Positions 3,001-44,594 of a stretch of 64,000 nt of DNA are shown piece after piece (within the stretch, counting starts at the first letter, position 1; each line of letters starts with the position of its first letter). The position numbers and the translations under genes are program-made. This stretch comes from Haliotis cracherodii (taxonomy: Eukaryota), in assembly GCF_022045235.1 (NCBI RefSeq), contig NW_027266275.1, forward strand, positions 28,086,001 through 28,150,000, given 5' to 3'. The notes under the pieces are model-generated. The model was given only the letters and a program-made list of their open reading frames with translations, had not been told where the DNA came from and did not search any database.

Positions 3001-4522
3001 ACTAACTCGTGTTCTCCTGGTTATCCCAGACAATACAATCCGCGGATAGTCTTCTCAACCTCGTGCCTTGATCACCAAGTTCGGAGTTACATTGAATACC
3101 ATGAAACTGTCGTGGGGAAGCACGGGTGAACAGGAAGGGGAACTAACTCTACTACAACAAGTACCCAACTATGTTGGGAAGGTGACCACATGGCCACGTC
3201 TGTCACTCTCACCTGACTGGCACTATCCTGGCTCCGCCTACCTGAAGTATTAGATGATTGACCTCACCTGACTGGCCCTATCCTGGCCCGCCTACCTGAA
3301 GTATTAGATCATTGACCTCACCTGACTGGCACTACCCTGGTCCCGCCTACCTGAAGTATCAGATGACAGACATCACCTGACTGGCACTACCCTGGTCCCG
3401 CCTACCTGAAGTATTAGACGATTGATCTCACCTGACTGGCACTACCCTGGCCCCGGCCTGCTCCAGGTACTTGACATAGTTGGCCGGGATATAGGTGTCG
3501 CCATGTGTCTTGCTGGCTGTGGCCTGGGCGAGGACACCTGCAAGGGGGGATAACTCTTATGTGTGTGCAATGATGGATGTGTGAAAACGAGATAGATAGC
3601 TGGTATCTTTCTACCAAGCGCCGATACTGCTTTTGTTTCAATCTACCCGAGTACATAACTTGACAGTGTATAAAATACATCCTGCTTTCGGTCTCGTTGT
3701 CCCAGTTTCGTTTCCTTACACCTTTTCACTTATTCTCCTACAATCCGTTCTCTTGTTGCCATGAATACTATTTTAAAATTTCGAACGTATTTTGTTGTAA
3801 ACGTCCGGAGAATACGTATACTATACAACGTTATCTTAACCGACGTGGTGTACATGTAAGTTTGTTATACCATGCTTTATTCGTGTTATCGGTGAATAAA
3901 CCAACAGCTATGTACGAAAAGTGTGGGACTATCCCAGAATATATATATATATATATATATATACAAAAATGAGGTAAATGTTCACTCGGTGTACATGTAA
4001 TATATAATAAAATAATAAAGTCCACGTTAGTCCAACATCAGATGTTGGATTAACGTGNNNNNNNNNNNNNNNNNNNNNNNNNNNNNNNNNNNNNNNNNNN
4101 NNNNNNNNNNNNNNNNNNNNNNNNNNNNNNNNNNNNNNNNNNNNNNNNNNNNNNNNNNNNNNNNNNNNNNNNNNNNNNNNNNNNNNNNNNNNNNNNNNNN
4201 NNNNNNNNNNNNNNCACCAGTTGTATGTACCCAGTTGTATTTGCCCTACAGATCTGCACACTGACGCCACAAAACACTGTAAAGTTGTAGGTCTAAAACA
4301 CTGACATACTCTGACGTAGCTCGAGGCCGTAGAGCTGATCTGACCGAGTCGTTGTACCCCGTGAAGCAGAAGGCTCTTCCGCAAATCGAGACAAGAGACA
4401 CAATTAACCCTTGCTTCAGTAGTTACTGACTTACCTATCACTGGTCTGTTGTTGTATGTGACGTGTCCTGCTGATGTCGCCACCACCAACACGCTGAGCT
4501 GCAGCAACGCACAAATCGCCAT
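40..4522 (-). CDS. GGH: gamma-glutamyl hydrolase paralog A (exons 1-6; 3' part beyond the window)
   Basis: Exons 4522-4435, 3537-3432, 2933-2883, 2772-2688, 2282-2144 and 146-40 have GT-AG boundaries and compatible phases. Signal peptide [19 protein letters not shown], then [28 protein letters not shown], the nucleophile motif [11 protein letters not shown] and NFHHYG. The N gap lies in intron 1. Confidence 0.93.
160..1480. repeat. 52-bp minisatellite (~25 units) with a 520-bp higher-order duplication
   Basis: Unit agagcatgatttatacagtgcacgtgttatccttaacaacacaacattgacc. Variant units recur at a 520-bp offset (acctgagcat at 631 and 1151). It abuts the exon-6 acceptor of GGH-A; a 3-4-unit homolog lies at ~19285-19470. 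Confidence 0.95.
1530..1945. mobile_element. non-autonomous palindromic element, Crypton-like (second copy ~9800-10080)
   Basis: Long imperfect palindrome around CCGAGGCTTGCCGAGG and an inverted terminus (tatttatcatcc / ggatgataaata). A related copy lies in GGH-B intron 6. The family assignment is from memory. Confidence 0.55.
3200..3431 (-). repeat. 55-bp tandem repeat containing the exon-2 end and donor (GGH-A)
   Basis: About 4 units of ctcacctgactggcactaccctgg..cctacctgaagtattagatgattgac. Confidence 0.9.
4058..4214. other. assembly gap (N run)
   Basis: Run of Ns inside intron 1 of GGH-A. Confidence 0.99.
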
Positions 4523-6262: not shown

Positions 6263-9200
6263 GCTATAAAAGTGCAATAATCTTGGACGCGACGTTAAAC
6301 CCAATTTCACCTCACCTCACCTCACCTCACCTCACCTCACCCCTTGGCCGTGCGAGGATTAACTGAGTAAGGATAAGAAACATTGTATTTGGATGAACAA
6401 TTTCTTTATTACAGTTATGCGCAACATTTCGGTGTAGGTTCTAACACCGTTATCAAGCAATGATTAACTGGTTGTGATTTCTAATTTAAGACTTAACCCG
6501 AAGATGATCCTTGGTTTGACTCAAGTATGTATTTGAAGCTTGACGGACCCATAGTTGTACGTCAAGGGAGCTCAATCTCAGCTCATATATATGAAGACCT
6601 ATGATTTTTACGTCACGGGTCTCAAGTACTTGAAGCCTAATCAAACAATATCCTCATGTTCCTTGGTGTAATGGATTCTGAGAGGGCCATTGCAATACCT
6701 TGTCATAGAAAGTTAGACCTCCTGTATATTTTTATGAGGATGGTAATCGGTTAGTCTAATTCGTTCTTGTTATGAAATAGTCAGTTCAGATTACTGGGTG
6801 TAATAATGAGGCTCTTCTGCATTCCGGTTCCCTCCACAGAGTCAAGCAGCCTAAAGAATACTACGAAACTCTCCTTTCGCGCATCAATGGGTGAGTTTAT
6901 CTCGACCTTGAAGCATACGCTTATATCATGACGCCATAGTACAATAAACTATGTTTATTACGAACACGCTTTTAACGAACTAGCGAATATAAGGAACCGT
7001 TTTTGTGTCTCAGCCATTTGCTGTGTACTTGCTGTATATATGCTTATAACGAACAACGGTTATAACGAACTAAAATCAGTGTTTCCTTTGAGTTCGGAAT
7101 AACCGTAGTTTACTTACTTTGTTCACGATACTATACTTATCACGATACATTATTACACCGAGAAATGGCATAAATTGTTGTTTTTATATAAGAAAAGAAC
7201 ATATCTCGTTTATGATAAATAATATGTCAATGAAACATAAGGATTGACCTGACTCACATAACAAACCAGCGCTGATTGGAGAGATAAGATATACATAACC
7301 AGCACTGAATGACATTTCTCACTGTCCTCTGTATACAGAGTGCTATTCCCCGGGGGTGACCGCAATCTGACCTCCAGCTACCTCGCCACTGCCGCTAGGA
7401 TCATATACGACATCGTCGTCGAGGTAATCTCACGTCGGACGTGGCAACTGTAGTTGGAAGTCTTTAATAGGGCGTAGATAGCGTTGTGGGATGGAGCCAC
7501 GCTTGACGCGGCCATTGTCTCGCAATAGTGCACATGAGAGTTGGAAGGTCTCATTCCACTGGTAATTAAAACAAACAAACCTAATTCATATATAAACTCC
7601 CACATTTGAGTCAAGCAGGCTTTTTAATGACACGATTGCATGAATGTGTTCTGAATTATGCGAATCAATGAATAATGTGGGGTTTTGTTTAGTATGATGA
7701 AGAAACTGTGTTGAATGAAATCATAGAGTGTGTCGGTTAAAATATTTGACTTGAGAAAGACAAATACGTGCAGAGCTGGTGAACACCATATAAACGGCAA
7801 AACGCCGGCAGATCCTGAGACAGTTGTGGGGATTCTCACAACCGCGTCAACGTAGATTAATATGTGTATATACTGATGAGCAATAATTAAGCATTACCAA
7901 TTTTTCGGATGTGTGCTACATTGAATACATGACTGGCGTTATCCATTGTTGGAAACATAACAAAAGAATAGTACACTGACAAACAGACCGCCTGGCACTA
8001 CCATCACACAAATAATGAAGCTGACACTAGCAATCGCTACCGATTTATTGTCGTTATGCGAAGAAATATATAACCAGTGCTGAAAAGAATCAGTACCCTG
8101 CCCACACCACGAATCGGCCTGTCAATCTGACTCGGCAATCAGTATCTGGAGTTTCCACCTCTCTCACGGGTGATATTCGCGAGGCATCTCTTATTATTGA
8201 TGATCATAATTCTAATTTTCAACATTGGGATCCTCTTCTATTCCTGGTCCAGTGTCAGAGTGAGTTCATTCGGGTTTTCAACTGGAGGGTATCTAGCTCT
8301 CACTTGGAAGTCAAGGTAATTCTAAAGGCGTTCATTTGGGTGCAGGCCAGGGTTTAGCATTGTTTTTCGGAATTAAATGTTGACTATGGTGTGCTTAATT
8401 TATGCTCATGTGTAAATTTACTCAAGCAAACACTGCAAATGAAAAGAATGGGTACGGACGAGCTCTTGAACTAGATGCAGTGCGACTTCCCCTTTAATCG
8501 GATGCTTCCATTTCGTTAAGAATGTGTAGGTGAATGAAAAATTAATGTTGTTTGATGGAGTGGAGTGGAGCTGAGTGGAGGGGAGTGGTGCTGACAAACC
8601 TACAGAACCTAATCAGGGCGAACTGCGATTCCACTACCCTATGTTTCTGATGGTTTTATGATGTCACATGTGCGTACTGACCAATGAAACCGCTGGGTTT
8701 TGTCATCACTTGTCTTTGCGCCGTGTCTCCGCCAGGCTAACGACGCCGGGGATCACTTCCCTTTGTGGGGCACCTGTCAGGGCTTCCAACTCCTCACCAA
8801 CCTGACGGCCCGGCACAACTTCCTGCAGCCCACTGATGCTGAGAACATCAGTATGGCGCTAGACTTGAAGCCAGGTGAGCTGTGACAGCGTACTGGGACC
8901 TGTAAATCATCCCAGGCTTAACGATACTATTATCATATACTTTACTATACTATACTTCACACCTATTGCGGTGGAAGTAACCTAGTGGTCCAAGCTTTCG
9001 CTCGTCACGCCAAAGGCCCTGGTTCGAATCCCCACAAAAGTAGCCTACAATGTGTGAAGCCCATTTCTGGTGTCACCTGTCCGATATTGTTGGACCATTG
9101 CTAGAAGCAGCGTAAACACCATATTCACACATTCACGGACCTATTATCTCACCTGTACATTCGAAAAGGTATTTTGGTTCACCTGATGGGACTTTTTTTT

Positions 9201-12117
9201 CAAAAACTGTTTGAAGTATGGTTTGCACACACAAAAGGATGGACCCAACGTCTCGATGCTACTTATATATATCGTTGCAGTTACGGGCTTGTTGAAAACA
9301 CCAACCTCTAGAAGCATGTTGATTCCGCTTCCTTACAGATGAAACTGGCGATAATTTTAATACATGTTCTTCTCTATGCCCCATTATTTGCGAATAGTGA
9401 GATGTGCTTTTTTATTTGTAGCCTACAAGGAAAGCCGCTTGCTGGGCATGGCCAGTCCTAGCGTCATCAACACGCTCACCAAGGAGAAGGTCACGCCAAA
9501 TTTCCATCATTTCGGGGTTATGGAGGAGGTATATTAATGTTACACACACGCGCACACATACCTTTTACAAACATATCGTGTAATACACACACACGCGTCC
9601 CGTCCCGGCTTACTATATATGCAGCAATATGCAATATGAAGAGCCAGAGTCAGATTAAAGGAGGACGTAAACAAAGATACATTGTGAGGTCATAATCATT
9701 GTGAGGTGATTAAACAAAACGCAACAATGCTGTTCGAATTACGTCAACAATGGCCTTGATTCGCATAACTGAAATGTAAGGATAATAAAATGATATTATA
9801 GAGAATCCCACCTGAGCGTCTTTTGATATCAAATACGAGTGTTGATATATTTGATATCAAAAGACACGAGGATGAGATACTATTTAACATCCAACATCAT
9901 TTTTCCAACATTTTCCTCAGTTTAAAAGCAGCAATAAGCAGGACCTTGGCTTTTGTAGCAGAGATTAGTGATGTCATTTGATTGTGACGTCATGGTAACC
10001 GATGATGTCACAATGGTCTGAAAAGGAGAGATCGCTTGATTTTTTTATCTCCCGTGGAGGCCACTTTTGGATGATTAATATTTAAATACGTTTCCTCTGT
10101 TACCCACACCGTCAGACATTTAGTGCCACGCCCTCTCTCCGCGACTTCTACCGGGTCATGTCTACCAACAAGGACAGGGGAGGGAAGGTGTTCGTGTCCA
10201 CCATGGAAGGTGTGTATCTCAATAAAAATATTTTAACTCGGACATTTTTATTGTCATAGTTAGTGACGTGCAGAAACACAAGTAACTATTGTTATTTTTG
10301 GGATAACACTTTCTTAGTAAAGTACAGATTCTAGTACTTTTTTGGGTTGAGTCCCGTGCGGGATTCGAACCCACACCTGTCAGGGTGAGGCACCTAATCG
10401 CCAGCACACAAAGTCAGCGATCTAACCCACTCAGCCACCGAGGCTTCCACAATAATGAAAGTCCGACAATTGGTAGTCTAGATCACGTACTTTGAGTACC
10501 CCCCTGACAAGTGTAAATTGGCATGGCTCTCATGGCCGAAAGCCCCCAAAAGCACTAGAATCTGTACTTTACTAAGAAAGTGTTATCCCAAATATAACAT
10601 TAGTTACATTTGACCACTTTCTAAATGGCATTGTGTATTCAGAAACACAAGCAGTTGTCGTCTTGTTATAATCTCATTACGTTCAATGCTGATTCCAATG
10701 TGTGCGTAGGACCATAGTCAAAGAGAACCCATCTCTATGTGAAGGGTTGTGTCCCTTGCAGTTTCCATTCCTACTCGTGCCATTCCGGGACAAACCTTCT
10801 TGTAGGTTACGGATGGTTACGAGTGGTGACAAATGTAGCTGATTAAAGGTCCGTCCCGGCACGTGACATCTTTACCCTCGTTGTATCATCGTTGCCACTA
10901 GTATGCAAGCCGCCCTTACAAGAATCTTGAAACTCCTAGTGTAATGGTATATATATCTTGGTGTATATCTTTGGGAATGACATTCTAGTGAATTGAGAAA
11001 AGGTTGACTAATATACTATTTCCCAGATGAATTTTCGTCTGTTTGTGTAATCAGATTTGTTCGCTATTGCAGACTAACAGAAAAGAACCTCTTACAATAT
11101 CATCACACTTAATTCGATTTCTACACGGTAGTTGAAATGAAACTGAAATTCCAACTGAAAAACAAACAAAATACTTTAACTGGGGGAAGAGTATTTGGTT
11201 TGGCCACATCTTGCTGGTAAACATAACGGTCAGGTAGTTGCTGGTTCAACTCCATATACGGTTGAGGGCGCCTAACACAGTAGGTATCGCTCACACCGGT
11301 CGCAGCGACAGTATTAAAGAGAGCTCTGTACTGCGAACGGCTATCTACTATGGCCTTGAGGTGCTGAATAGTTGGCTGGGGGTTCGAATTATACTCGAAT
11401 ATATTAAGTTGTGTTTGTTTGTGTGTTGTTAAACGCCGCACTTAGCAATAGTCCAGTCCAGTCTGAGCCAGAAAATCCAGTGATCGACATCATGATAATC
11501 GATCACAGAGAGCCTGACCACCTGATCCCGTTAGTGGCCTTTTACAATAAGCATAGTCGCCTTTTACGGCAAGCATGGGTTGCTGAAGACCTATTCTACC
11601 CCGGATCTTCACGGGTGCGATTATAATACGACCCAACAAACTGTCAACTATTACACGAAAAGAATTCCCGATGTTTTATCTCACGATATCCTATTCTGTC
11701 TCCCCCAGCGTTCAAATACCCGTTTTATGCCACCCAGTGGCACCCGGAAGATATAAACTACGGTTGGAATCCCAACGACGACGTCGACCACACACGGGAG
11801 GCCATCCTCGTCACCCAGTACCTCGCCAACTTCTTCGTCGACGAGGGTAAGCGAGTTGGGATGAGTCTGTGCAGCGCGGGTCGGAAGCGAACTGTGTGTT
11901 TGTTAGGAACCTCTTAATATCTATCGTATCTTGATATATTTTAGCAACTTAACATTTCATACTTCTTTCTTCCACAGCCCGAAAAAGTCAGCACCGCTTT
12001 CCAGACGTCGCCACAGAGTCTGCAGCCGTCATTGAGAACTACCAGCCTCTGTTTCTTAAAGACGGATCTTTCTCTGAAGCATATATGTTTAATTTTACCC
12101 AAATTCCTTTTAATTAA
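5045..12117 (+). CDS. GGH: gamma-glutamyl hydrolase paralog B, ~314 aa, 9 exons
   Basis: Exons 5045-5126, 5784-5892, 6840-6890, 7339-7423, 8736-8874, 9422-9528, 10116-10209, 11709-11846, 11978-12117 (945 nt, in frame, TAA). Signal peptide, [34 protein letters not shown] at 12153-12158. Confidence 0.94.
5971..6340 (+). mobile_element. tRNA-headed SINE with V-domain-like core and (CACCT)n tail
   Basis: A-box TGGTCAAGTGG, core cataccaaaagacgttaaaagatggtac, internal (CA)n, target-site duplication (TSD) cccttggccgtgc. Antisense copies at ~15545-15915 and ~49900-50242. Confidence 0.8.
10277..10645. mobile_element. repeat with an internal tRNA-like segment and inverted/tandem termini (copies ~27090-27435, ~34690-35022)
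   Basis: Three dispersed copies share a tRNA-like segment (GGTGGCTGAGTGG..GGTTCGAATCC) with partial direct and inverted terminal repeats. Confidence 0.75.
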
Positions 12118-17065: not shown

Positions 17066-20000
17066 ACGGAGGTACATTCTGCACGATAGGGAACACTTAC
17101 ACATTCCTGCATTAGTCATGTATGTCACACCGGAAGTAGTCAATGGCTCGTGGGTAAGTGAAAGGACAACTCGACATAGAGCTGAACACTTGCTTGAAGG
17201 CATGTGTCCTACAGATAACACCCTCTTCCTGAAGGCTGTACAGGAAGTGTATAGAGCTCATTGTCTGTTTGCTAACTTCCTCCATTTAATTGTTGAATAG
17301 ATTAAACCACCCCCCTGCTGATTCTGTTCCCATGAGAAGTGAGTGACGTCTTACGCCGCATTTAGCATAGTGCAGCATTATCTCGGCGGAGAACAACGCA
17401 GATGGGCGTAACACATGACACTGGATAGTCTGGTCCAGACTCGATTAGGGATTTTGTATGGAGACCATCTATTTTTTGGGCTACATCTGCAAGCATGAAT
17501 ATTACGTTTAGTGTCATTGCTTTCGTGATCATATCACAAAACGTATAACATATTTACATTCGTCCATCATTGTGAATTACTTATAAATTTCTTTAATCAA
17601 GTACTTACAAATCAAACATGTTATACATTTTTGGAAGTAGTAATAAATGGTATTTTTTCGATTGTACGCATCCTATATTGTAATACACAAGAGTTATCCC
17701 CCTTGCAGGTGTCCTCGCTCAGGCCACAGCCAGCAGGACACATGGCGACACCTATATCCCGGCCAACTATGTCAAGTACCTGGAGCAGGCCGGGGCCAGG
17801 GTAGTTCCAATCAGGTGAGGTCGCTCATCTAATACTTCAGGTAGGCGGGGCCAGGGTAGTGCCAGTCAGGTGAGGTCAGTCATCTAATACTTCAGGTAGG
17901 CGGGGCCAGGGTAGTGCCAGTCAGGTGAGGTCAGTCATCGAATACTTCAGGTAGGCGGGGCCAGGGTAGTGCCAGTCAGGTGAGGTCAATCATTTAATAC
18001 TTCAGGTAGGCGGGGCCAAGGTAGAGCCAGTTAGGTGAGGTCAATCATCTATTACTTTAGGTAGGCGGAGCCAGGATAGTGCCAGTCAGGTGAGAGTGAC
18101 AGACGTGGCCATGTGGTCACCTTCCCAACATAGTTGGGTACTCGTTGTAGTAGAGTTAGTTCCCCTTCCTGTTCACCCGTGCTCCCCACGACAGTTTCAT
18201 GGTATTCAATGTAACTCCGAACTTGGCTGATCAAGGCACGAGGTTGAGAAGACTATCCGCGGATTGTATAGTCTGGGATAACCAGGAGAACACGATTTAG
18301 TAGACAAGGGTTGTAACGGTGACTGAAGTATGACACATGACGCTGATGTCTGTCATCCTCCATTGCAGAGTGAGGGAACCAGGCTCCTACTACGCCAAGC
18401 TCTTCTCGCAGATCAACGGGTAAGGCAATTGTGTTCTTGTTGTTTCACATTCTTCATAAGCTAGCTTTGACGTATGGTGATTTACACAGTTATATGTGCT
18501 TACTATGTTGCCGTGACATGAGAACACTTGTGTCCCACAGAGTGTTGTTCCCCGGGGGTAGTGTCGGCATTGTAAGCAGCGACTACGCCAAGGCGGCCCG
18601 GATCATCTACGACATGGCGGTGAAGGTAGGAGCCACGTGTAGCCTCAGATCAGACACAAACACTGTCCTTGTACGCAGCAGGTGATACACAGTTAACATG
18701 TACCTGTACATCCCAAAGTGACACACGCACAATAGTATATGTCCTTGTGCGCGCACGCACACACACGCACACACATATGCGCGAAGTACACGTGACTCAG
18801 ATTCATGCGTATTATTTACCAGCTGGACACAGACAGAGAGCTATTTAGAGTCATCCAAAGCTATTACACGACTAATGCACGTGCTTAGTACCATGTAAAC
18901 CAAGGACGCTGCAACTGGTCCGTTTCATGGTGTTCTGTTGCCCCGTGTCTCCGCCAGGCTAACGACGCCGGGGATCACTTCCCCTTGTGGGGTACCTGTC
19001 AAGGCTTCCAACTCCTCACCAACCTGACGGCCCGGCACAACCTTCTTCAAGCCGTGGATGCCTCCGACATCAGCCTGCCTCTTGATCTAGCTCCAGGTGA
19101 GACAACGGTGTGACCATCAACCAGGTAGCTAGGACGTAACACTGTTTCACAGATGACGTCTCAGAAATATCGCCATTGACACGAACAACCTAGTGATACA
19201 ATTCTGTGACTGTAAGAATTGTAAGAATTTCATGGTGTAATTGTTTTGTGGTCCAGCGCCATTGTTTTGTATTTCGCCAAGGCAACGTGTAAATCATGTT
19301 CTGGTCAATGTTGTGTTGTTAAGGATAACACATGCACTGTATAAATCATGCTCTGGTCAATGTTGTGTTGTTAAGGATAACACGTGCACTGTATAAATCA
19401 TGCTCTGATCAATGTTGTGTTGTTAAGGATAACACGTGCACTGTATAAATCATGCTCTGTTCAATGCTATCCTTCAGATGCCAAGTCCAGCAGGCTGTTG
19501 AGTCGACTGTCACAGAAGACGTTTCACATACTGACCACTGAGAACGTCACCCCCAACTTCCACCACTACGGATTATTGCTGGAGGTGAGGCATGGCTGGT
19601 GGGGTACATGTATTAAAACACATCTGTGACGTCATTCTATTGTTTGAACACTCCATTATTTTTCAGGAATGGAGAGTTGCTTGTCAACTGTACATTATCT
19701 TGAAGCAGCATTTGAATTTTTCAAATATTTTCAACTACAGAATATTTTGTCAAAGTGTAAAAGTAGGGATGAGTTTTAAGTAGGGGAATATCCTCGTAAG
19801 TCTCCATTCCTTAAAAATAATGGGCCTCGGCCCCTGCGGGGCCTCTGCTCCATTATTTTTAAGGAATGGAGAGTTACTCGGACATTCCCCTCTACGTAAT
19901 GGGTAGGACACGTGTAACGAAGGGAAGGACACGTGTAACGAAGGGAAGGACACGTTTAATGAATTGTAGGACACGTGTTATGAAGGAGGGACACCTAATG

Positions 20001-31846: not shown

Positions 31847-34800
31847 ATGCATGGGAGCGTGGCGTGGTGGTTCGTGGTGCTGTGTGGCGGGGCCGCTTTG
31901 GCCGTTGAGGGAGCCACTGTTTGTACAGACAGACCGGTCATTGGTAAGTGTCCGACTCGTCCGGCAATGCTGGTAAACGGGGTATTTATACTTGGCTGTC
32001 TTGCAATGTTGCAATGCAGTAATGCATGCAGACAACATTTGTAAGACTCTTTGGGGGCATGGGTGGCTCTGTGGGTTAAGTGAGTGGGTGAATGTTGTTT
32101 TATGCCGCTTTTAGCAATATTCCAGCAAGATCACGTCGGGGGACACCAGAAATGGGCTTCACACAGTGTACCCATGTCGGGAATCGAACCCAGTTCCTCG
32201 GCGTGATAAGCGAACCCTGTGGGTTAAGGCGCCGCAAATCTAAGGGTTGGATGCCAGAGCCGCCCCGTTTATGATCCTTCGGTTGTCAGCACCATAACCA
32301 AACTCGTGGGTTTCACCAACGTGGTTGTCTAACGTTACGTCACCTTGGCCTTTCTCTCACAGTACGTGACCCGCCGTGGTGTAACTGAAGCGGCATAAAA
32401 CAATACATGGTTGTAAACTCAAACACGAAGAAAAGGTAAGAAGAAGAAAAGTCCTATGAAACATTGAATATAGATATACTCCAGTACAGTCCGACTTGTT
32501 GACAGGGATCATAGCCCAGGCTTCCAGCAGCAAGCGCCATGGAGACACCCTCATATCAGCCAACTACATCAAGTGCCTAGAACAGGCCGGGGCGAGGGTT
32601 GTACCCATTCGGTGAGCAAACTTTATAACTTTCATTTATTACATGGTACTGAAAGTTGAAGTGACAATTTCGATCGCATACAATTGAATAAACTTATTTA
32701 CTTACTCAAAGAGAGACACGCATAGCTCAGTGGTCTAAGGTGCGGCATTTCGCTTTACAGAGTAGTTTCCCTTGGCCTTATAAGGAGCCGTTGATCGTTG
32801 GTTCTAATCACAGATTCCCCCTGAAACCTTGTTTTTTCAGCACCATATCGAGGTCGTGGGTTTTGATAAAGTGGTACACATGTACGTCTATACGCTGATA
32901 AACCGTGTTATAACTGAAATACTGTTCAAAGCGGCGTTTAATCCAACTCGCTCACTGTCACAATGGTAAACCTGTTAAATCTACAAAATCATTCATGATA
33001 TAGGCCTACTATGTTACAGGGGGCACGGGTGGCCGCGATTCGCTGTGCAGAGTTGCGTCCTTTGGGCACGCCAGAAACCTACGATTGTGGGTTCGAATCC
33101 CGGTTCGCCCCGGTTATGTTTCTCGGTTTGTCCTCACCATACCCGTGCTCGTGGGTTTCACCGAAGTGGTAAACGTCTGAGACCTGCATCACTTCGGGCT
33201 TTCCTCCCTCATTCAGCTGACGCGTCGTGATATAACAGGAATAATGTTAAAAGCGGCGTTAAACCCAACTCACTCACTAACTCACTCACTACTATGTTAC
33301 AGTGCCATCTGAATGTCTGACATAAATTGTTTTGCAGTGTACGACAGACCCAACAGTACTATGAGCAACTTTTCTCCAAGATTAATGGGTAGGTCTTCGT
33401 TGAGTGGACGGTCATCCCCGGTTGTTTCTAAGTGTCATGATGGTGTTGGATTTAAACAGGTTTCACTGAATGTCAACCAAATACTGCAATATCGTATCTA
33501 GTCGTGAGTTCCTTTAGTCTTGGGGTTCGATTCCCGACATGGTGCAATGTGTGAAGCCAATTTCTGGTGTCCCCCGCCGTGATGTTGCTGGAATTGTGCT
33601 AAAAGCGGCGTAAAATCATACTCACTCACTCACTCCTTTAGTCTTTGCCTCAAGTAATGAAGATGCAAGTCCCGAAAGGTGTAAACTACTTATGTCATAC
33701 ACTATTCCAGTATTTCCTTGCCGTTTACAAGAGACAAGTGTACGCTGTTAGAAACAGAGTTGTTTATGCAGCGACATGATGGTTCACTACGGTAGGACTT
33801 GTGTGGTCGGCAATGTTGATTGTGTCTATACAGAAAAGTTATGTCACTTGAATTAGCACAAAACTGACTCGCGACCAGAGAATCAAATGTATGATGGTCG
33901 ATGCGTACAACACGTGCTGAATCTCCATATTTATTACCGCAATGACGATGAAATAAGATAACTTTTACGGCATGTTGAAATCAGATACCTTTACAGCATA
34001 GTGGAATCAGATAACGTTTATATCATGTTGAAATGAGATGCGTTTACGGCATGGTGAAATCAGATACCTTTACGGCTTGGGGGAAATCAGATTACGTCTA
34101 CGGCATGTGAAATCAGATGCGTTTATGGCGTGATGAAATCAAATACCTTTACGGCATGTTGAAATCAAATACCTTTACAGCATGGTGAAATCAGATGCGT
34201 TTACGGCATATTGAAATCAGATACCTTTACAGCATATGTTGAAATCAGATATTTGTACGGCATGTTCTAATATTAACTTCATGTACCAGCGCCCTGTTTC
34301 CGGGTGGCCACGTTAGCATCGTCTCCAGTGACTACTCCAAAACTGCCAGGATCATCTACGACTTGGCTGTTAAGGTACGTTGAGCATTTCCACAAATTAA
34401 AATCCCAGGTATTTGCGATATCATAGTAATACAACATGCGTATGGTGCCGAAGAACCGGGATTACAACGCGGCGACAACGGAACATATCACGACTAAGGG
34501 GCGTAACTCTTTATTACTTTATGCAGCGCCTTAAACCATTGAGCCACTCGTCTCTCAACTTAGTCCATTCTATGGAACCGTATTAGTGCCAATACAAAAA
34601 ATGTATCATCTTGGAAAAAGGATGCTTACATCAACGTACATAATATAGTAACCTACGTAAAAGAAGGAATCATCTACTAATGAGTTATCTATGAACACAT
34701 AATGCCACTTAGAAAGTGGTTCAAATTTAACAAATGTTATCCCAAATATACCATCTGTTACATCTGACCACTTTCTAAATGGTATTGTGTGCATAGGTTT

Positions 34801-37800
34801 CGGCCATGGGAGCCATGCCGATTTACACTTGTCAGAGGGGTACACAAAGTACATGATCTAGAGTACCAGTTGTCGGACTTGCATTTTTGTGGAAGCCTCG
34901 GTGGCTGAGTGGGTTAGATCGCTGACTTAAGGTGCCTGACTCTGACAGTGTGGGTTCGAATCATGCATTGGATTTAACCCCAAAAAGTACGAGAAGCTGT
35001 ACTTAATTGAGAAAGTGTTATCGACTTAGGTAAGAATATTTTAATAGAAATAAACACTAGTTACGGGTCAGTTATATATAACCTCTGGATTAATTAATAC
35101 TGACCGATATGTTTTTGACTTTCTGCACTGACATGTCTTTATTGAGGTACGATCTAAACATTGCATAAAGTAAATCCTCATTTCAAAGTGTCGAAGTTAC
35201 TGGAGAATGACACACGCCACACTCTCTTACGACCGTAAAAAAAGAGAAGAGAGCACAAAATGTTCCCCAAACTACAAACAAACAACTATTGCCCCGCTTA
35301 TACGGACTTTAGATATCCGGAAACCTCGGTTCCCGGTCGATTTTCATTCAAAACGAAATAATTACTATATACATTTACCCGTATATACGGAAATTCAGTT
35401 TCCGGAACCGGATGGTCATTTTCATACACAAAACACTGAAATGCACACAAAATTGTCTCACTTACCCGGACAATACACTTCCGCTGGTGGCAATCCTTTG
35501 ATTCGTGAGAAGACAATTAACCAAGTGACACTGAGTTACGTTTGAGACGAGCTTGTTTATTGTACATGTAATCCCCTTCGATAAATATGGCGTCTGGCGC
35601 CCATCTCAAAATCAGAAATTAAAAGTGTAAACAAACAAAAAATAACCAAAAAATGGCATAATCAATATCAAAACTCAAATAGCCAAATCAAAAAAGTGCT
35701 CAGAAAACCACTAGCCAAACCTAAAATCCTACACCCCTCTAAAAAAATTGACAGATTAATTACAAAACTCCAAACAGGACACACCAACCTAAATAACCAC
35801 CTAAAACAACTTAAAAGACACACCACAGGCAACTGCCCCCACTGCAAACAACCCGAAACCACAGAACACGCACTCATTCACTGCACCCACTATCAAACAC
35901 ACAGAACCACACTACAAACCGCCCTCAATCTAAATAAAGTTCCTACTCTAGATGAAATACTAAACCCTCAAAATAAACTAGAAAACTTCAAGGCCCTAGG
36001 CGTATTCCTAATCAAAACAGACCTAATTAAGCGCATCTAAAAATTAATTAATCTACCAATTCAAAATCCAATAAACATACAAACACCCACCTCACCCGGC
36101 TCCCTTAGTTCCCTCCTCCACCCACCTCGGCATTTATTCCAAATTTAAAAATTTCAAAAAATCAATATAAGCAACCCCTAAAAGCCCCCTCTTGGGTTGC
36201 ACACACCACTTTCACCCTTCTCGGAATACACTAAATGGTCCGACCAGGCCCGTGTGCGAAATACGCTGTAGTCGGAAAGCGCACGTTAAATCTTTTATAT
36301 CAGTCAGCCAGTAAAAAGCTGGTTTCAGTTAAACGGAATGTATTTCAAAATTTTAGCGAAAATATATATCAACCATAAGTCGGAGAATATGTTGATTCTC
36401 ATGATTTCTCTATCACGGAAATTAGGTTAGAGTGGTAAAACGTGAATATGAAGGAGTGAGAATCACCCAAACTATAGAAACTTTATCAAACCAAAACTCG
36501 TCATTATCATATGAATGAAGATACAATTCCGCAGTTTGTATTTTTTTATTTTAGAGCTTTTGTTTGACAATCTGAAATGATATGTTGTAAAAATACGGAA
36601 AAGGCCAAATAAAAATAAACGACCAAGATGCTCCCAAACATTTAATTAAATTAGCTGTAATTAACACGTTGATCTACGTAGATGATAAAAAATGAAACTG
36701 TGGCACTAATACGCTTCCATACTATTCCTAACACACGGGATGTGATTAGTATCAATAGCAGGGGATGTGGCGACGTTGTGATGATGGGTGTATCCGTCTA
36801 TAGATAACCGATTTACGTGTCGCTATTACTTAAAGACCAAGAGATAGGGTATGTTTATTTACCCCGAAAGGTCCATATGGTCTGAATACTTGTAACATTT
36901 GCATTATGTCTGGGCTATTCAAAAATATATTTCTTACAAAATATGTCTTGACCATTTTGCCAGTAGGGGGCGGTAAAGACTTGACTCCGCACTTTTTTCT
37001 GAAGGTGACAGTAGGTTTTCAGAGATGATCAGGATATGTATGTGTTACCTGTAGTGTTCAAATTCTATGTGAAAACAAATCTTTAAAGTTGATATTTTAT
37101 TTGAAAAATTAAAAAAATGACATTGTATTTAATTTATATATTTTTTACAGTCAAAATGGCAATTTGAGTTGTTTTTTTGTTAAACTTCAACTAACCAAAC
37201 TTTTCCACAAATTCATGAAACTTATGTTGATTTGGTTAAAATGGGGCATAGCCAGTATAAAACACTGCAAAAGTTATTCATTTTCTGACAAAATAGTGTT
37301 GGGCTTGTAAAGCAAAATTACTAAGAAAATTACAAGCTTTTATTACAGGAGTAAAAAGAAACAAAAGATGGTACTTTGCAAACAAAATCATAAATATTAT
37401 GATATTTCCTATCACAGATAAGACATTTTGCAATATTGTGTTCTTTTATAAAGTATATGCTCATACCTTCACTTCAATACCCAAATAACTTTAGTCATTC
37501 TCATTTTTTTATTAAACTTGTCGCATTTTTCTTTATCACATGGGCGCTAAAACAATTGCTGAGTCATGCTTTTTTATGGCATACTGTAAGGAAATGGTCA
37601 AGATACAATTTGTAAGAAATTGATTTTTCGAAAATATAATCAGTTTTCTTCATGATCCACATTTCAAACCTTTTGGACCTCTGAGGTAAAAACAGTCCAT
37701 TCTATCTCTTGGACTACTAAAGAATGAGACCACAGCCCCGTTCCACAAGGCGATCTTAGCGTTAAGGTGGCCTTAACTCCGATACTTTAGGCTAACAGTA

Positions 37801-40800
37801 AGCTGTAGCGTTAAAATCGCATTGTAGAACGGGGCCCAACACGTCAATGTTCAAGGACAAGGCAACGCAAGGAAAAGCACCATTGTTACATATGGCGTGT
37901 ATGTGAGACCCCTCCACACTGTTACCTGTCGCAGGGATTTACCTGGGTATAGCCATATTTGTTCCAGGGGACTCTCTGTAATCGGGAATCCAGAAGGGTC
38001 CCATGCTGGCAACCTGTGGAACGCTTAACTTGATTTCCAAGAATATTAATTGATTTCACTAGCTTGTTTTAGATGGTAATTTCAATGTCAGATTGTAGAA
38101 AAGCAACCACTGACACCCAAAACTTTGAGTGTAGTTTTTATAACAGAATAGAAGTGTCAGTTATATGAAATCGTCATTAAGAGGCCTCAATTCGATGTGC
38201 AGAGTTGCGTCTCTTGGGTACGCCAGAAACTATGCTTGTGGGTTCGAATCTCGGTGCTCCCCGAAAATGCTTCTTGATTTTTCAGCACCATAGCCATGGT
38301 ATAGCGTCTGAGACCTGCATCACTTCGAGCTTTCCTCCCACATTAAGCTGACACGCCGTAATATAATTGGAATATTGTTCAAACCGGCCTCATTCACTCA
38401 CTCCCTTCATACAGTCTACAAGTTTGATAACTGTAATATTTTTTTGGCATCCTTCAGGACAATTATTTGCCTCCGTTATAATTTGTACACGTACAGGACG
38501 CAATATTCGGCCTGAGGAGACCATCACTACAGGGATTCATGGTCATTCAAGGTTTCCCGTTGTTCGATTTTGATTTATCCATTCATATGTTCACCGCTAT
38601 TTTGCCCCTCACGTCCAATGCCATCTTTTTCGGTGGATAATCGAGACTGGTTATTCTCTGGTGTTGACGTTTTGTATTTATTGCTTTGCATGCCAGAGCT
38701 CCGTGCCACAAAGCGATCTTAGTGCTATGATTGTCATAGATCAAAAGTCGGTAATGTAAAGGGGAGTAACGGCTAAGAGTGAGTGAGTGAGTGAGTGAGT
38801 ATGGTTTTACGCCGCTTTTAGCAATATTCCAGCAATATCACGGCGGGGGACACCAGAAATGGGCTTCACACAATGTACCCATGTCGGGAATCGAACCCGG
38901 GTCTTCGGCGTGACGATCGAACGCTTTAACCACTAGGCTACCCGACCGCCCCTGTAACGGCTAAGATCTTCCATAAGGAGAGTTTAAGGGCTGTCGTAGA
39001 TTTAGGGTGATCTTATGACTCAGTGTTAGTGACGGCTTTGTGTAACGGCCTTAAAAGGTAAGACATGGTTTACGACGTGGTTCGGATGGTCGTAGCGCTA
39101 AGAGGCTTTCGTGAAACGGCACCCTGGTCCAGATTTGTATTTTTTTATTGGATGTGATATAACTGGAACATTGCTCTCCGATGTCTTTTAACTACACTCA
39201 CTCCCCGAAATGACGCGACTATGTTTGTCGTTAGAGGAGACTAACGGGATCGGGAGGTCAGACTCGCTGACTTGGTTGATGCATGTCATCCTATCCCAGT
39301 TGCGTGGATCCGATGCTCATGGTATCAATCACTGGATTGTCTGATCCAGACTCGATTAGTTACAGACCGCCGTCATATAACTGGAAAATTGCTGAGTGCG
39401 GCGTTAAACATCAAACGAACAAACCCCCAAATGACTGCTTGTGTAGGCCAACTCTGAGGGCGAGGTGTTCCCCCTGTGGGGTTCGTGTGAGGGGTTCCAG
39501 CTAATGACGTACTTAAGTACAGGACACAGACTGCTGCACTCATCAGAGGCCTACAACGTCAGTCTGCCTCTCATCCTGCAAACAGGTAGGCAGCCACTGT
39601 CACTGGAGGAATACAAAACTGCATGTCAATATAGTAGAGGAGAAACTTGTCCTTGACATACATTTGGCCCGTGTAGGGATTTCGGATAAGAAAAAGTCCC
39701 TAGTACCCAATGCACGTAAGAGGCGATTGATGAGAATCGGGTGGTTAAAATGTGTGATCTAACAGACCGTCTGCCATGATCTCATGGCATGGATCGTTGG
39801 TCGGGATATCAACCACTGGTGTACTTTGACGGGACGAGATGATTACATACCCATCCGTGAAGATCCCGGTTAGAATAGGGGTCTTCAGGAACCCATGCTT
39901 GTCGTAAGTGGCGACTAAATTAATGGGATCGGGTGGTCAGGCTCGCTGACTCGGTTGATGCATGTCATATTATCCCAATTGTGTGGATTGATGCTCATGA
40001 TATCAGTCACTGGATTGTCTGATCCAGACTCGATTACTGTAAATCTTGAACTTAACCCGAGCGTGAATTAAATGCGAAAAGGAGAGTGCATGGTGCACAA
40101 GTTAGATCTATTTATTGTCTTTGGTGGTAATTTATCCGCCCATGACTTGTATAGTCAGTTAACTCTTTTGCCTCAGGAAGATGCGTACAGTTGGTTCCGA
40201 GTTCCATCACACTGTCACTCGAGGCACTTGTACTTGGGAACTTGATGACTAACCAAACGTTTGGATAAACGATGTGTGTATTTTTTTGTTGTTGCAGGTT
40301 ACGAAACAAGCAGAATGCTCGGAGGACTGACATCCCAGCTGACCACAATTCTGACCAGCGAGAATGTTACGCCTAACTTCCATCACTACGGCGTGTCGGT
40401 TGAGGTACACCGGTCATCATTTTATATGTAAATTCGCCGAATTAATACATTAGGAGATTGAGAAGAGTCATCATGTTCAGGGTGTCAGGTATCCAGTTAT
40501 CCGCGACATTTCGGCTTATTCCGCCGCATACAGAATACATCGGGTTGCACTCATGACCAACTCGTCCCATTCCGGGACAAGCTTATCGTAGGTTACGGAA
40601 ACATGCGAGTGGTGACGAATGCATCGGGTTGCAATGTCGTTGTGACATTGCATGAATTTACTGGAAACGATGAAACCACGGTCCCGCCGCATGTAGTTCG
40701 TATAACACGACGGACGTTTTTGGAGACAGATTATGCCGAGGTTAAAACTAAACATGTCTTCTCTTTGATATGAAGACAAAAGCAAAACTTTTTGAACATT

Positions 40801-42833
40801 CGTATAAGGTTCACTACTGCCGCCACGAATAAAACTGGTTCCAAAATGGACTATCTGCCAGTGCTGTCTGAGATCCTATGCTGGACTGAGACCAATCACA
40901 TTAAAATGACATCTTTGTTTAGTGGTAGCAAGAACTAAGATCTGATATTAATAAAATTGGACGTGACGAGCCGGCTGGTGACACAGTTGTCTCCCTTGGA
41001 CTAGAGGCCCTGATTATCAGTACACACGTATTTGACGTTTTCGCGATACCAGTTTGCGTAGTTTATTTGTTCATTTGTTGTTTAACGCCGCACTCAGCAA
41101 TATTTCGACTATATGACGGCTGTCGTCAGTATATTAATGTGTTTTCATATATCGGAACAAAACAATTTTATATACAATGGAATCAGGACATTAATTGTAT
41201 AATACTATTTTCTGACGGAACAAGATTTCTCAAGCTATCAGTACTTCAGCTGATCAGGTTTACTGGCAATGACTGGTGTGTTTTCACTGGATCTCTAGTT
41301 CGTGAAGTGTAAACGTATCATATTCATAATGTATCGTGTACTGTATATAGCGACCTAACTTTCGAATTTTGTCACGACACAGAGTATCGTTGTAGTTTTT
41401 GATGCTCTGCCTTGTTAATTCGTGATCTCACAGTATGATTTTAGAGGCGCTTCTGTCAGTTTTGCTAATGTTTTATTATGAAATCGTTACCTGCATTGTT
41501 AACGAGATACATTTGTTTAAATACGCACCCACTCTATATCTTTGCAGACATACAACAAGTCGGCGTCTCTAAGACACTTCTTCCGTGTTTTATCCACAAA
41601 CAGGGACAACAAGGGGAAGTTGTTTGTCTCGACTGCTGAAGGTGAGTGAGTGAGTGAGTGAGTTGGGTTTTATGCCGCTTTTAACAGTATTCCTGTTATA
41701 TCACGGCGTGTCAGCTTAATGTGGGAGGAAAGCCCCAAGTGATGCAGGTCTCAGACGTTTACCACGTCGGTGAAACCCACGAGCACGGGTATGGTGCTGA
41801 CAAACCTAGAAACATAATCGAGGCGAACCGGGATTCGAACCCACAATCATAGGTTTCTGGCGTGCCCAAGGGACGCAACTCTGCACAGCGAATCGCGGCG
41901 CCTTAGACGACTGGGCCACCCGCGCCCCCGACTGTTGAAGGTAAAACTAATGAAAACAGTGAAGTTACAGGCCTACCGGGACTTCTTGTATTTAAGCCCC
42001 AGGACAGATTACGGAAAATGGCGCCTTCTCATCCAAAATACGTTATCCTAAATTAAGCCCAGGGCTCAATTTCGGAAGCGCTAACGCTTTCTTACCTAAA
42101 TAGGGGACGCCCTTGACTGAAAAATCAGAAACTAAAAAATGTACATGAATTTTGAACCGGAAATAACTGCATAAAATGAAAAACTTGAACTTGCATTTAC
42201 AGTAAACTACGGTTATAACGAACTCAAATGGACCACTAATTTTTGTTCGTTATAACCGTAGTTCGTTATAAGCATTTATACAACATCTATACAGCAAATG
42301 GCCGGGGCCAAAAATTAAGTTGGTAACATTCGTCAGTTCGTTATAAACGTATTTTACTGTACTGTTGAATGAATATCGGGATTTGCCTCGTGTAGTGCAT
42401 CACCACGTATCACCTTTCGAAGGGAGTTCAGTTATGAAGTTAAGGAAGATCACTTCCAAATAAACATCCGAATTGAAGTCCATGGACCTAAATACGGAAC
42501 TATTTCTCTGTTTAGGCCCATGAGCGTAATTAAGTGTGGAGTGAGTGAGTGAGTGAGTTTGGTTTTACGCCGCTTTAAGCAATATTCCAGCAATATCACG
42601 GCGGGGGACATCAGAAAAGGGCTTCACGCATTGTACCCATGTCGGGATTCGAACCCGGGTCTTCGGCGTTAACCACTAGGCTACCCGACCGCCCCAATTA
42701 AGTGTGGACATAAATACGGGAGGTCCGGGTACATTGACCATCACGGCTGGATTTCTGTAGCCGAACACTGAGATTGGGATATAGTCGAGATCCTTGCAGT
42801 GCGTGTGTGTGTGGTGGTGGTGGTGGTGGTGGT

Positions 42834-42872
<39 letters not shown>

Positions 42873-44594
42873 ATACTGTTGTGGTATTATACCGTAGCAC
42901 TTTGGTAGGAGTATGGTGGTAGGTCCGGCACAGCATACAGCATGACGTATTGCTCAACACTCCTACCTATGCTGCCCGCATAGTACCTCTGCCACAGGCT
43001 AGCGCCATGTGACGATCCGTCACATCTTACACAGTCCATTCAAGATATTGCATATGTTTTTCATCTGTTTCATATTTACAAGTCTACATATCTAGATAAA
43101 CATATGTCACAGAATAGTTAACTTTCATTGAGAAAATATCCTAAATCGTGAAAAACTATTTCAATTTGCGTAGTTATCCTATGTTTACATTGGTTGTACG
43201 GCTCCACGTGCTGCCGTCAAAGCCCAAAGGAGAGCTAGCGATTTGGTCACTTTGACTTTTGTATAAATATATATTGTCATGCAAATCACTGTCGCAGATG
43301 TTATTAGCATATCTATATAATAATGCAAAACAATATTCAAAGCGACCCCAAATACTTGCATTAGTCCGTTCTGTTCCGATTTCTGAAAAAGCGCGTTTAT
43401 TTACAAACATGTCCGGTCACGTGATATGCAAATTGGCCTGTGGCAGTGGCGTTATAACAAGGGCAAAAACCAGTCCCCGGGAATTGCTTTAGATCAGTGC
43501 CCCTTTAATAGTTTGTTTGGGACGTTTGACAGTGGACCATTGTGACACAGCCATCAACATACTTTATCGTGATATTACCTAACTAGAAGTGTCGGAATGA
43601 TAATCTGTCGAAGTACCACCGGAAGTAGCGAAGTGTGAAAAAGGTCAGTAGCCTGTATCTATACGTTTAGCTTCAGCAGATTGCGCCACAGGCTTTATAA
43701 TAATACCTGTATTATTCATGTCAGTCTAATGTTCCATTCCCAGCCTACAAGTACCCGTTCTATGGCACACAATGGCACCCGGAGAAGATCAATTTTGAAT
43801 GGAACCCCAGTCTTGCTATCAACCATGGAGCTAATGGGGTCCTTGTGTCACAGTACTTCGCCAACTTCTTTGTCAATGAGGGTAATAGTGCTCACAACCT
43901 ATTGTTCTTGTAAAATCCAGTTATAATGACAGTCATGGAATTATCGGTTTTATAATGGAAATGAGGGGAAAAGTGCTCACAACCTATTGTTCTTGTACAA
44001 TCCAATTATAATGACAGTCATGGAATTATCGGTTTTATAATGGAAATGAGGGGAAAAGTGCTCACAACCTATTGTTCTTGTACAATCCAATTATAATGAC
44101 AGTCATGGAATTATCGGTTTTATAATGGAAATGAGGGTAAAAGTGCTCACAAACTATTCTTGTAAAATCCAATTATAATGACAGTCAAGGAATTATCGGT
44201 TTTATAATGGAAATGAGGGGAAAAGTGCTCACAACCTATTCTTGTAAAATCCAATTATAATGACAGCCATGGAATTATCGGTTTTATATACATACACATT
44301 TACACAATGGGGTTGGAAATAAGGGTAAAAGTACGTACAACCTATTGTTCTGTATAATTAAATTATAATGACAGTTGTGGAATTATCGGTTTTATAAACA
44401 CACACCTTTACACAATGGGATGGAATGCTTTTTCTATTACAGCTAGAAGAAGTTGCCACCAGTTCCCGAGTGACAGAGAAGCCGGTCACTTGCTCATAGA
44501 GAAGTTCTTCATGAATTACTGGGATGACGGTTCTTTCAAACAGATCTACTACTTCAACTTCACTCAGCCTGTGGGCAGCCACTTGGTCGGCTAG
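31847..44594 (+). CDS. GGH: gamma-glutamyl hydrolase paralog D, ~322 aa, 9 exons
   Basis: Exons 31847-31943, 32506-32611, 33338-33388, 34290-34374, 39447-39585, 40298-40404, 41548-41641, 43744-43881, 44443-44594 (969 nt). Signal peptide, RPVIG, ALFPGG, WGSCEGFQ, NFHHYG, QWHPEK. Confidence 0.93.
33019..33290 (+). mobile_element. tRNA-derived SINE with (ACTC)n tail
   Basis: B box GGTTCGAATCC; TSD ctactatgttacag; same family as the copies at 41644-41928 and 52281-52561. Confidence 0.85.
33955..34266. repeat. ~26-bp minisatellite ending near the GGH-D exon-4 acceptor
   Basis: About 12 units of catgttgaaatcagatacctttacgg. Confidence 0.88.
35640..36312 (+). mobile_element. 5'-truncated LINE (I/Nimb-like): ORF2 C-terminal CCHC zinc finger and 3' UTR
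   Basis: ITKLQTGHTNLNNHL..CPHCKQPETTEHALIHC is the usual end of a non-LTR ORF2. The DNA is strongly A/C-skewed and ends in cgttaaa plus a (CAGT)-like tail. It is nested inside a TIR element (~34569-36721). Confidence 0.82.
36833..37715. mobile_element. non-autonomous DNA transposon with ~50-bp imperfect TIRs
   Basis: ccaagagataggg..tttacc..aggtcca..ggtctgaa matches the reverse complement at ~37662-37712; AT-rich interior. Confidence 0.6.
38778..38952 (-). mobile_element. short tRNA-derived SINE (~170 bp, (ACTC)n tail)
   Basis: A/B boxes TAGCCTAGTGG / GGTTCGATTCC; TSD gtaacggctaaga. Other copies at ~2452, 8970, 12340, 24328, 32080, 33520, 42540 (TSD aattaagtgtgga), 45738 and 46240. Confidence 0.88.
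41644..41928 (-). mobile_element. full-length tRNA-derived SINE inserted at the GGH-D exon-7 donor
   Basis: TSD cgactg(c/t)tgaaggt at 41630-41643 and 41929-41942; the antisense tail reads (GTGA)n. Confidence 0.9.
42199..42360. mobile_element. MITE with CAGTAAA termini and TA TSD (copies ~6940-7115, 48078-48181)
   Basis: tacagtaaactacggttataacgaac ... gttcgttataa..tttactgta. Confidence 0.72.
43875..44425. repeat. ~85-bp tandem repeat forming most of GGH-D intron 8, including the exon-8 end
   Basis: aatgaggg recurs at 43875, 43960, 44045, 44130 and 44212. Confidence 0.9.

What the first reader, a model, noticed from the sequence alone, without database searches (positions are those of the whole stretch)
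41630..41946. Antisense SINE tail has replaced the 5' splice site of GGH-D exon 7
Seen: a SINE lies between two copies of a 14-bp target (cgactgctgaaggt / cgactgttgaaggt) that is the exon-7 end plus its GT. The original donor GAAG|GTAAAA is displaced ~300 bp downstream. The exon now ends GAAG|GTGAGT, where AGT and the following repeats come from the antisense (ACTC)n tail, giving five stacked GTGAGT donors 4 nt apart (41642, 41646, 41650, 41654, 41658). Reading on in frame gives GGT GAG TGA, so use of the old donor would include a premature stop. Inference: at least two abundant SINE families here carry tails that are consensus donors in antisense. Such insertions at exon ends could rescue splicing and remodel donors genome-wide.
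Basis: partly seen in the sequence, partly recalled or inferred. Interest (0 to 1): 0.8.

Follow-up and report, generated by a model that had tools for sequence, protein, structure and literature searches.

The report
SINE insertion inside abalone splice donor
A short mobile element landed two bases into an intron of an intact abalone enzyme gene, and its repeat tail happens to complete a good splice signal; the same thing is seen at a few other genes, at about the rate chance predicts.

Summary
Observation confirmed. A 286-bp tRNA-type SINE lies antisense at 41644-41929, between 13-14-bp target duplications, at the exon-7 donor of an intact gamma-glutamyl hydrolase gene. The duplication keeps the exon end and GT; the (ACTC)n tail replaces +3..+6 (AAAA to GAGT). 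A related organism has the empty site. Only donor 41641 gives the full protein, identical to an NCBI model. An RNA contig fits normal exon 6-7-8 splicing, but that organism's SINE status is unknown.

It is not a one-off: temptin-monooxygenase, galactose mutarotase and methyltransferase genes have the same anatomy. There, however, the duplication keeps the donor and the tail changes 0-1 base. Rates (1 of 43; 2 of 12) match assumed chance priors (1-2%; 11-19%), and about 14-24 such events are expected among 39,599 tails. These SINEs join targets through about 2-nt tail microhomology, and their favourite site at a donor is the exon end itself, where the tail would break the frame.

Verdict: tolerated, recurrent accident, not genome-wide donor remodelling.

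The parts
31847..44594 (+). GGH copy D, nine coding exons, 322 aa, open frame; Peptidase_C26 family
   Evidence: the model with donor 41641 is identical to P0001 (XP_071107856.1)
41548..41641 (+). exon 7 (94 bp, phase 0 to phase 1)
   Evidence: bin depths of X12 fit cover from 41546
41631..41643 (+). upstream copy of the target duplication (41630 is an ambiguous 14th base): exon end plus GT; keeps the ancestral C at 41636
   Evidence: X7 record 28; Ala in all four abalone orthologues
41642..41647 (+). present donor GTGAGT: GT shared by target and tail, GAGT from the tail
41644..41663 (-). SINE 3' terminal repeat (ACTC)5; four further GTGAGT at 41646, 41650, 41654, 41658, each preceded by GA and out of frame or past the stop
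41644..41929 (-). full-length tRNA-type SINE of the longer family (F1, about 286 bp); 3' 61 bp 88.5% alike to the shorter family F2
41831..41841 (-). B-box-like motif (consensus recalled)
   Evidence: sequence; no Rfam or ARAGORN call
41908..41918 (-). A-box-like motif (consensus recalled)
   Evidence: sequence
41930..41942 (+). downstream copy of the duplication with the displaced donor (GT at 41941-41942, then AAAA); derived T at 41935
42539..42695 (-). second antisense SINE (family F2) deep in the same intron, with its own duplication and (ACTC)5 tail
43744..43881 (+). exon 8 (QWHPEK motif)
   Evidence: X12 record 8

Best explanation
An ordinary LINE-driven SINE insertion that happened to be splice-neutral. 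Shown: the element sits antisense right after intron base +2; the 13-bp duplication keeps exon end and GT upstream; the tail turns AAG|GTAAAA into AAG|GTGAGT; the site is empty in a related organism. Inferred: the target strand was nicked after GT (or at the exon end, which cannot be told apart) and paired with the RNA's terminal AC to prime reverse transcription. Inferred: exon 7 is still spliced at 41641, because this donor is first in line and pairs best with U1, while the old and tail-internal donors give truncated messages that would be rare or degraded. Such insertions arise at about the random rate, survive when the duplication ends 2-6 bases into the intron, and touch tens of donors per genome. 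The duplication does most of the preserving; the tail matters only when the cut is at +2 to +4, as here.
For: Empty site in organism B, filled site in organism A. Only donor 41641 gives 322 aa; alternatives give 245 or 228 aa. One RNA contig of organism D has the same depth (7.85) at exons 6, 7 and 8, no cover of the unique intron bins, and an exon-8 piece starting at 43742, which needs an upstream exon ending in AG and so excludes the GA-ended tail donors. The four exonic differences listed are synonymous (40 of 217 rows were shown). Microhomology mean 2.0 against 0.68 simulated; 51 of 74 have 2 nt or more, as described for tail repeats of RTE and I elements (PMC6007223, passages). Naive U1 pairing: new 7.5, old 6, tail-internal 6. 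Recurrence at chance level: 1 of 43 AG|GT targets besides the focal one, 2 of 12 in the AGGTAAG set, priors 1.0-1.7% and 11-19%.
Against: No RNA from a known SINE-bearing animal was seen; the joint itself was not listed, because SINE contigs flooded the table. The NCBI model is a prediction that may rest on this same DNA. Priors use assumed donor numbers (150,000-250,000) and assumed shares of AG|GT (55%) and AG|GTAAG (10%). Exon detection was insensitive: Pfam missed the focal exon, the mutarotase exon and the methyltransferase exon, so a several-fold enrichment is not excluded. Copy D has two changes at otherwise conserved residues (Y56C, V86A), so it may be under relaxed constraint.
Confidence: 0.75

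Rival explanations
1. One reading: the tails are consensus donors that are targeted to, or selectively kept at, exon ends, and have remodelled donors across the genome.
For: Four confirmed genes in a partial survey. When the duplication ends at +2 or +5 the tail raises modelled U1 pairing by about 0.9. At least 39,599 tails exist. Exon counts are lower bounds.
Against: The tail changes 1, 1 and 0 donor bases in the three other genes. Observed rates match priors. Modelled insertion weight at +1..+5 averages about 1.1 per position, against 6.9 at the exon end. Expected total 14-24, about 0.01% of donors. At +3 and +4 the modelled change is negative.
Confidence: 0.08
2. The insertion is mildly harmful: stacked out-of-frame donors and the old donor divert part of the splicing to truncated messages, and it persists because copy D is one of four paralogues under weak constraint.
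For: Five competing donors all truncate the protein and score the same as the old, working donor in the naive U1 count. Y56C and V86A in this copy. Four copies in the cluster.
Against: Open frame, catalytic Cys and His-Glu motifs present (triad recalled). Listed exonic differences are synonymous. The insertion is also on a second, different haplotype with depth near full (X2 records 11 and 14). The duplication's single change fell in the intronic copy.
Confidence: 0.15
3. Not an insertion: assembly error or a chance repeat.
For: None found.
Against: An independent DNA run has both junctions (X2 records 11 and 14), another has the exact empty site (X7 record 28); family-typical duplication length.
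Confidence: 0.01

Closest known systems
Canine merle allele (antisense SINEC_Cf at a PMEL intron-exon boundary; PMC6091007, passages read)
   Same: Antisense SINE at a splice boundary; the reversed tail supplies a splice signal; original and SINE-derived sites compete.
   Different: Merle is at an acceptor, the tail gives a pyrimidine tract and splicing is disturbed in proportion to tail length. Here it is a donor, the tail spells the donor consensus and the frame appears kept.
Tail-repeat microhomology in LINE/SINE integration (RTE-related SINEs; I factor, R1Bm, R2Ol; PMC6007223, passages read)
   Same: The end of the duplication matches the terminal repeat by one or two bases; duplications of about 10-15 bp.
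   Different: The repeat here is (ACTC)n, whose complement is a donor consensus; the partner LINE was not identified.
Mollusc tRNA SINEs with shared LINE-type 3' ends (PMC4758252, PMC4824008, PMC11481361; abstract or passages read)
   Same: tRNA-like head, 3' region shared between families, terminal tandem repeat. PMC4758252 reports (CACT)n ends in Bathymodiolus MESC SINEs.
   Different: The Haliotis MESC/Meta SINE is said to end in (CACCT)n; no consensus comparison was possible, so F1 and F2 are not assigned. The word stem 'splic' does not occur in PMC11481361.
Exonisation by antisense Alu or L1 splice sites (PMC2176070 search listing only; Alu recalled)
   Same: Retroposon sequence used as a splice signal on the antisense strand.
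   Different: No new exon is made; an existing donor is rebuilt in place.

Membership tests
tRNA-derived SINE | Short interspersed repeat with many copies | tested here: met
   95 near full-length F1 hits in fetched loci, median 92% identity; 39,599 tail motifs of both families
tRNA-derived SINE | Variable target duplications | tested here: met
   74 of 224 unselected tails, 10-17 bp, mode 13; empty site
tRNA-derived SINE | tRNA-related head with A and B boxes | tested here: inconclusive
   Box-like motifs seen by eye against recalled consensus; Rfam, ARAGORN and folding gave no tRNA call
tRNA-derived SINE | Terminal tandem repeat and a 3' end shared with a partner LINE | tested here: inconclusive
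   (ACTC)n tail and 61-bp 3' region shared by F1 and F2; no LINE with this end found (the one LINE seen, in L310, is broken and ends otherwise)
tRNA-derived SINE | Polymerase III transcription | not testable with these tools
   Only contigs were available
MESC/Meta, V, CORE or Deu SINE superfamily | Central conserved domain | not tested
   Consensus sequences are in figures and supplements that were not read
Retroposon-derived splice donor | Donor bases come from the element | tested here: met
   +3..+6 from the tail, +1/+2 shared with the target
Retroposon-derived splice donor | The donor is used in RNA from the filled allele | tested here: inconclusive
   Spliced contig in organism D, whose genotype is unknown; joint not listed
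Gamma-glutamyl hydrolase (peptidase C26) | Family match and intact frame | tested here: met
   PF07722 E 8.7e-17; PDB 1L9X match of exon 8; orthologues in three other abalones

The most novel reading that the evidence does not exclude
Because the tail is the complement of the donor consensus and joins targets in phase, (ACTC)n SINEs are a class of retroposon that is unusually well tolerated just inside introns, completes weak donors to consensus and also makes new AG|GTGAGT donors, so that hundreds of abalone donors are tail-built, well above what poly(A)-tailed elements could leave.
Probability: 0.12. Interest if true: 0.7.

Novelty: new variant of a known kind. Interest (0 to 1): 0.36.

Why it matters
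It is a clean, dated example of a retroposon rebuilding a 5' splice site in place, with an empty allele in a relative and three sister cases, so donor competition can be measured directly. It links a known integration rule (tail-target microhomology) to splice-site evolution and makes a sharp prediction: insertions ending at +2..+6 survive, while the more frequent ones at the exon end are purged. At tens of sites per genome the effect on gene structure is small.

Tried and rejected
Own-genome search with PF07722 found no GGH exon. Rfam, ARAGORN and folding did not call the SINE head a tRNA. The run search listed no holder on record as RNA. X21 (organism B, RNA by guess) had no cover of exons 7 and 8; this is no evidence either way. 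The exon 7-8 joint was not among the 15 listed of 3,886. Pfam scans of frames upstream of SINE tails were insensitive: 1 clear hit among 112, 1 weak among 36, 0 among 21; the scan of 122 frames round L287 found only a LINE. PDB search with the L287 exon gave nothing; the Atlas hit was 0.76, a lead only. Of 60 AGGTAAG matches, 13 in tandem clusters were not fetched; of 202 matches only 20 new ones were fetched. The 44 and 12 denominators come from an automatic filter and include some doubtful calls in tandem repeats (L005, L025, L123, L145, L158; L271, L293, L304). L305, L303 and L272 look exon-like but are unconfirmed; L267 (weak Sushi hit) has only a tail remnant without duplication; none was counted. 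Literature searches for a retroposon tail rebuilding a donor found no such report; three returned no paper, and subscription papers are not in the library. Earlier findings of the scan: none. A recalled family name for these SINEs was not in PMC4758252 and was dropped.

Full report
Setting. The window lies in a 1.18-Gb genome (G000) and holds four tandem gamma-glutamyl hydrolase genes: A on the minus strand running off the start, and B, C, D on the plus strand. Copy D has nine coding exons from 31847 to 44594. Its translation is identical to NCBI XP_071107856.1, labelled Haliotis cracherodii, with orthologues in H. rufescens, H. asinina and H. rubra. That record is a gene prediction and may rest on this same DNA, so it confirms the frame but not the splicing.

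Anatomy. Exon 7 is 41548-41641. A SINE of about 286 bp lies on the minus strand at 41644-41929, with A- and B-box-like motifs (seen by eye, consensus recalled; Rfam and ARAGORN call nothing) and an (ACTC)5 tail next to the exon. The duplication is 41631-41643 and 41930-41942, with one mismatch and an ambiguous 14th base. The upstream copy carries the exon end and GT; the tail gives +3..+6, so AAG|GTAAAA became AAG|GTGAGT.

It is a real, recent insertion. In one search, one 438-bp contig of organism B (X7 record 28) maps to 41335-41636 and 41936-42071, skipping exactly 299 bp, the SINE plus one duplication. The join implies C at the mismatch, so the exon copy is ancestral and the intronic copy changed; all four orthologues have Ala there. 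Organism A (X2) has contigs running from the exon into the tail (41080-41681) and from the head into the intron (41907-42207), on a haplotype that differs from the window at three listed places. Two animals or haplotypes with the insertion do not show fixation.

Splicing. Only a cut after 41641 gives 322 aa; 41645 gives 245 aa by frameshift, and 41649, 41653, 41657 and 41940 give 228 aa. A 1,077-nt contig of organism D (X12, RNA by guess) has depth 7.85 at exons 6, 7 and 8; bin depths fit cover of 40296-40402 and from 41546, with none in the unique intron bins. Its exon-8 piece starts at 43742, two bases early, as expected if the upstream exon ends in AG; tail-internal donors end in GA. It has 675 letters upstream of that piece against 677 for the coding exons, which leaves no room for the SINE unless the contig is cut short. 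This shows normal splicing of GGH-D in organism D, but no DNA of D was listed, so it may be an empty allele, and the joint was not printed. Use of the tail-built donor is therefore likely but not shown. A naive U1 pairing count gives 7.5 for the new donor and 6 for both the old and the tail-internal ones. Four exonic differences listed are synonymous. Against full constraint: Y56C and V86A are private to this copy.

How the element inserts. Two families (F1 about 285 bp, F2 about 168 bp) share a 61-bp 3' end and the tail; an exact tail-plus-body motif occurs 39,599 times. Among 224 tails not chosen for donor context, 74 had a clear duplication: mode 13 bp, microhomology to the tail averaging 2.0 nt against 0.68 simulated, ends GA in 30, AG in 20 and GT in 3, next base A in 45. 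This agrees with tail-target pairing described for RTE and I elements (PMC6007223, passages). The focal GT is such a shared pair; a nick at the exon end with the tail joined at GT cannot be told from a nick at +2.

Is it general? I fetched all 117 matches of AGGT plus four or five tail units, 20 more of the F1 type out of 202 in a wider pattern and 47 of 60 matches of AGGTAAG plus tail. Three further genes have a full SINE with duplication exactly at a coding donor: a temptin-copper monooxygenase gene (L019; Pfam E 9e-18, exons on both sides), galactose mutarotase (L299) and a methyltransferase (L287). The donors changed from GTGAGG to GTGAGT, from GTAAGC to GTAAGT, and not at all. So the duplication did the preserving there and the focal case is the deepest replacement seen. 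Rates were 1 of 43 targets with a prior AG|GT besides the focal one, and 2 of 12 in the second set, against 1.0-1.7% and 11-19% expected if such insertions are neutral (donor numbers and shares assumed, motif frequencies). Had they been purged, none would be expected in the second set. Detection was uneven: two of the three were spotted by eye after Pfam missed them, so the counts are lower bounds.

Model. Weighting 24 real donors of the cluster by the measured three-base preference, duplications ending at +1..+5 sum to 5.65, about the random rate, whereas the exon end itself weighs 6.9. There the tail's T follows the exon's AG, the GT shifts by one base and the frame is lost. This gives 14-24 donor-keeping events among 39,599 tails and as many or more breaking ones. 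At +2 and +5 the tail improves modelled U1 pairing by about 0.9; at +3 and +4 it lowers it by about 1. The model rests on 74 insertions and 24 donors and is rough.

Comparison and verdict. Retroposon-derived splice signals are well known; the nearest case read is canine merle, an antisense SINE whose tail makes an acceptor signal (PMC6091007, passages). Six searches found no report of a tail rebuilding a donor in place, but the library lacks most subscription papers. The mollusc SINE papers (PMC4758252 abstract and passages; PMC4824008 and PMC11481361 passages; supplements not read) do not let F1 or F2 be named. The finding is real and recurrent, a new variant of a known kind, and best read as a tolerated accident. 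The genome-wide claim is not supported, though a moderate enrichment is not excluded.

Noticed in passing
L019:1373-1690 (G000:C4:5843385): F2 SINE with a perfect 14-bp duplication at a donor of a temptin-copper monooxygenase gene; the tail changes +6 only.
   Followed up: yes
L299 (G000:C45:69319241): F1 SINE at a donor of one of two tandem galactose mutarotase genes; NCBI model XP_071079936.1 matches this copy across the junction.
   Followed up: yes
L287:1405-1693 (G000:C23:11611425): Young F2 SINE at a donor of a five-exon methyltransferase gene; the whole donor lies inside the duplication.
   Followed up: yes
L267:1480-1720, L305, L303, L272: A Sushi-like exon followed by a tail remnant without duplication, and three exon-like stretches followed by SINE tails; not confirmed as exons.
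   Followed up: partly
window 32506-34374: Copy D carries Y56C and V86A at positions conserved in three other abalones; may indicate relaxed constraint.
   Followed up: partly
window 32079, 38777, 42539 (antisense); 33268, 33620 (sense): Introns of GGH-D hold several more (ACTC)n SINEs in both orientations, so stacked GTGAGT deep in introns is common here.
   Followed up: partly
L002-L031, L052-L081, L112-L168, L321-L340: Many insertions at AGG followed by A create a new AG|GTGAGT at sites that had no GT before; possible raw material for new exons.
   Followed up: no
window 8694-8879, 18916-19101, 2135-2375; 2625-3590 and 17658-18689: Exon 5 and flank are 83-94% alike among copies A, B and C, and A and C share long intronic blocks, suggesting recent duplication or gene conversion.
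   Followed up: no
L310:5155-8640 and about 9340-9390: A broken LINE with endonuclease and reverse transcriptase pieces, and a further repeat family with an ACTC-type end.
   Followed up: partly
window 10349-10444: ARAGORN calls a tRNA-Thr(TGT) inside a repeated element in an intron of copy B; probably a SINE head.
   Followed up: no
window 41644-41663: The sense RNA tail is complementary to GUGAGU donors, like the 5' end of U1 (recalled); whether SINE RNA pairs with pre-mRNA donors is pure speculation.
   Followed up: no
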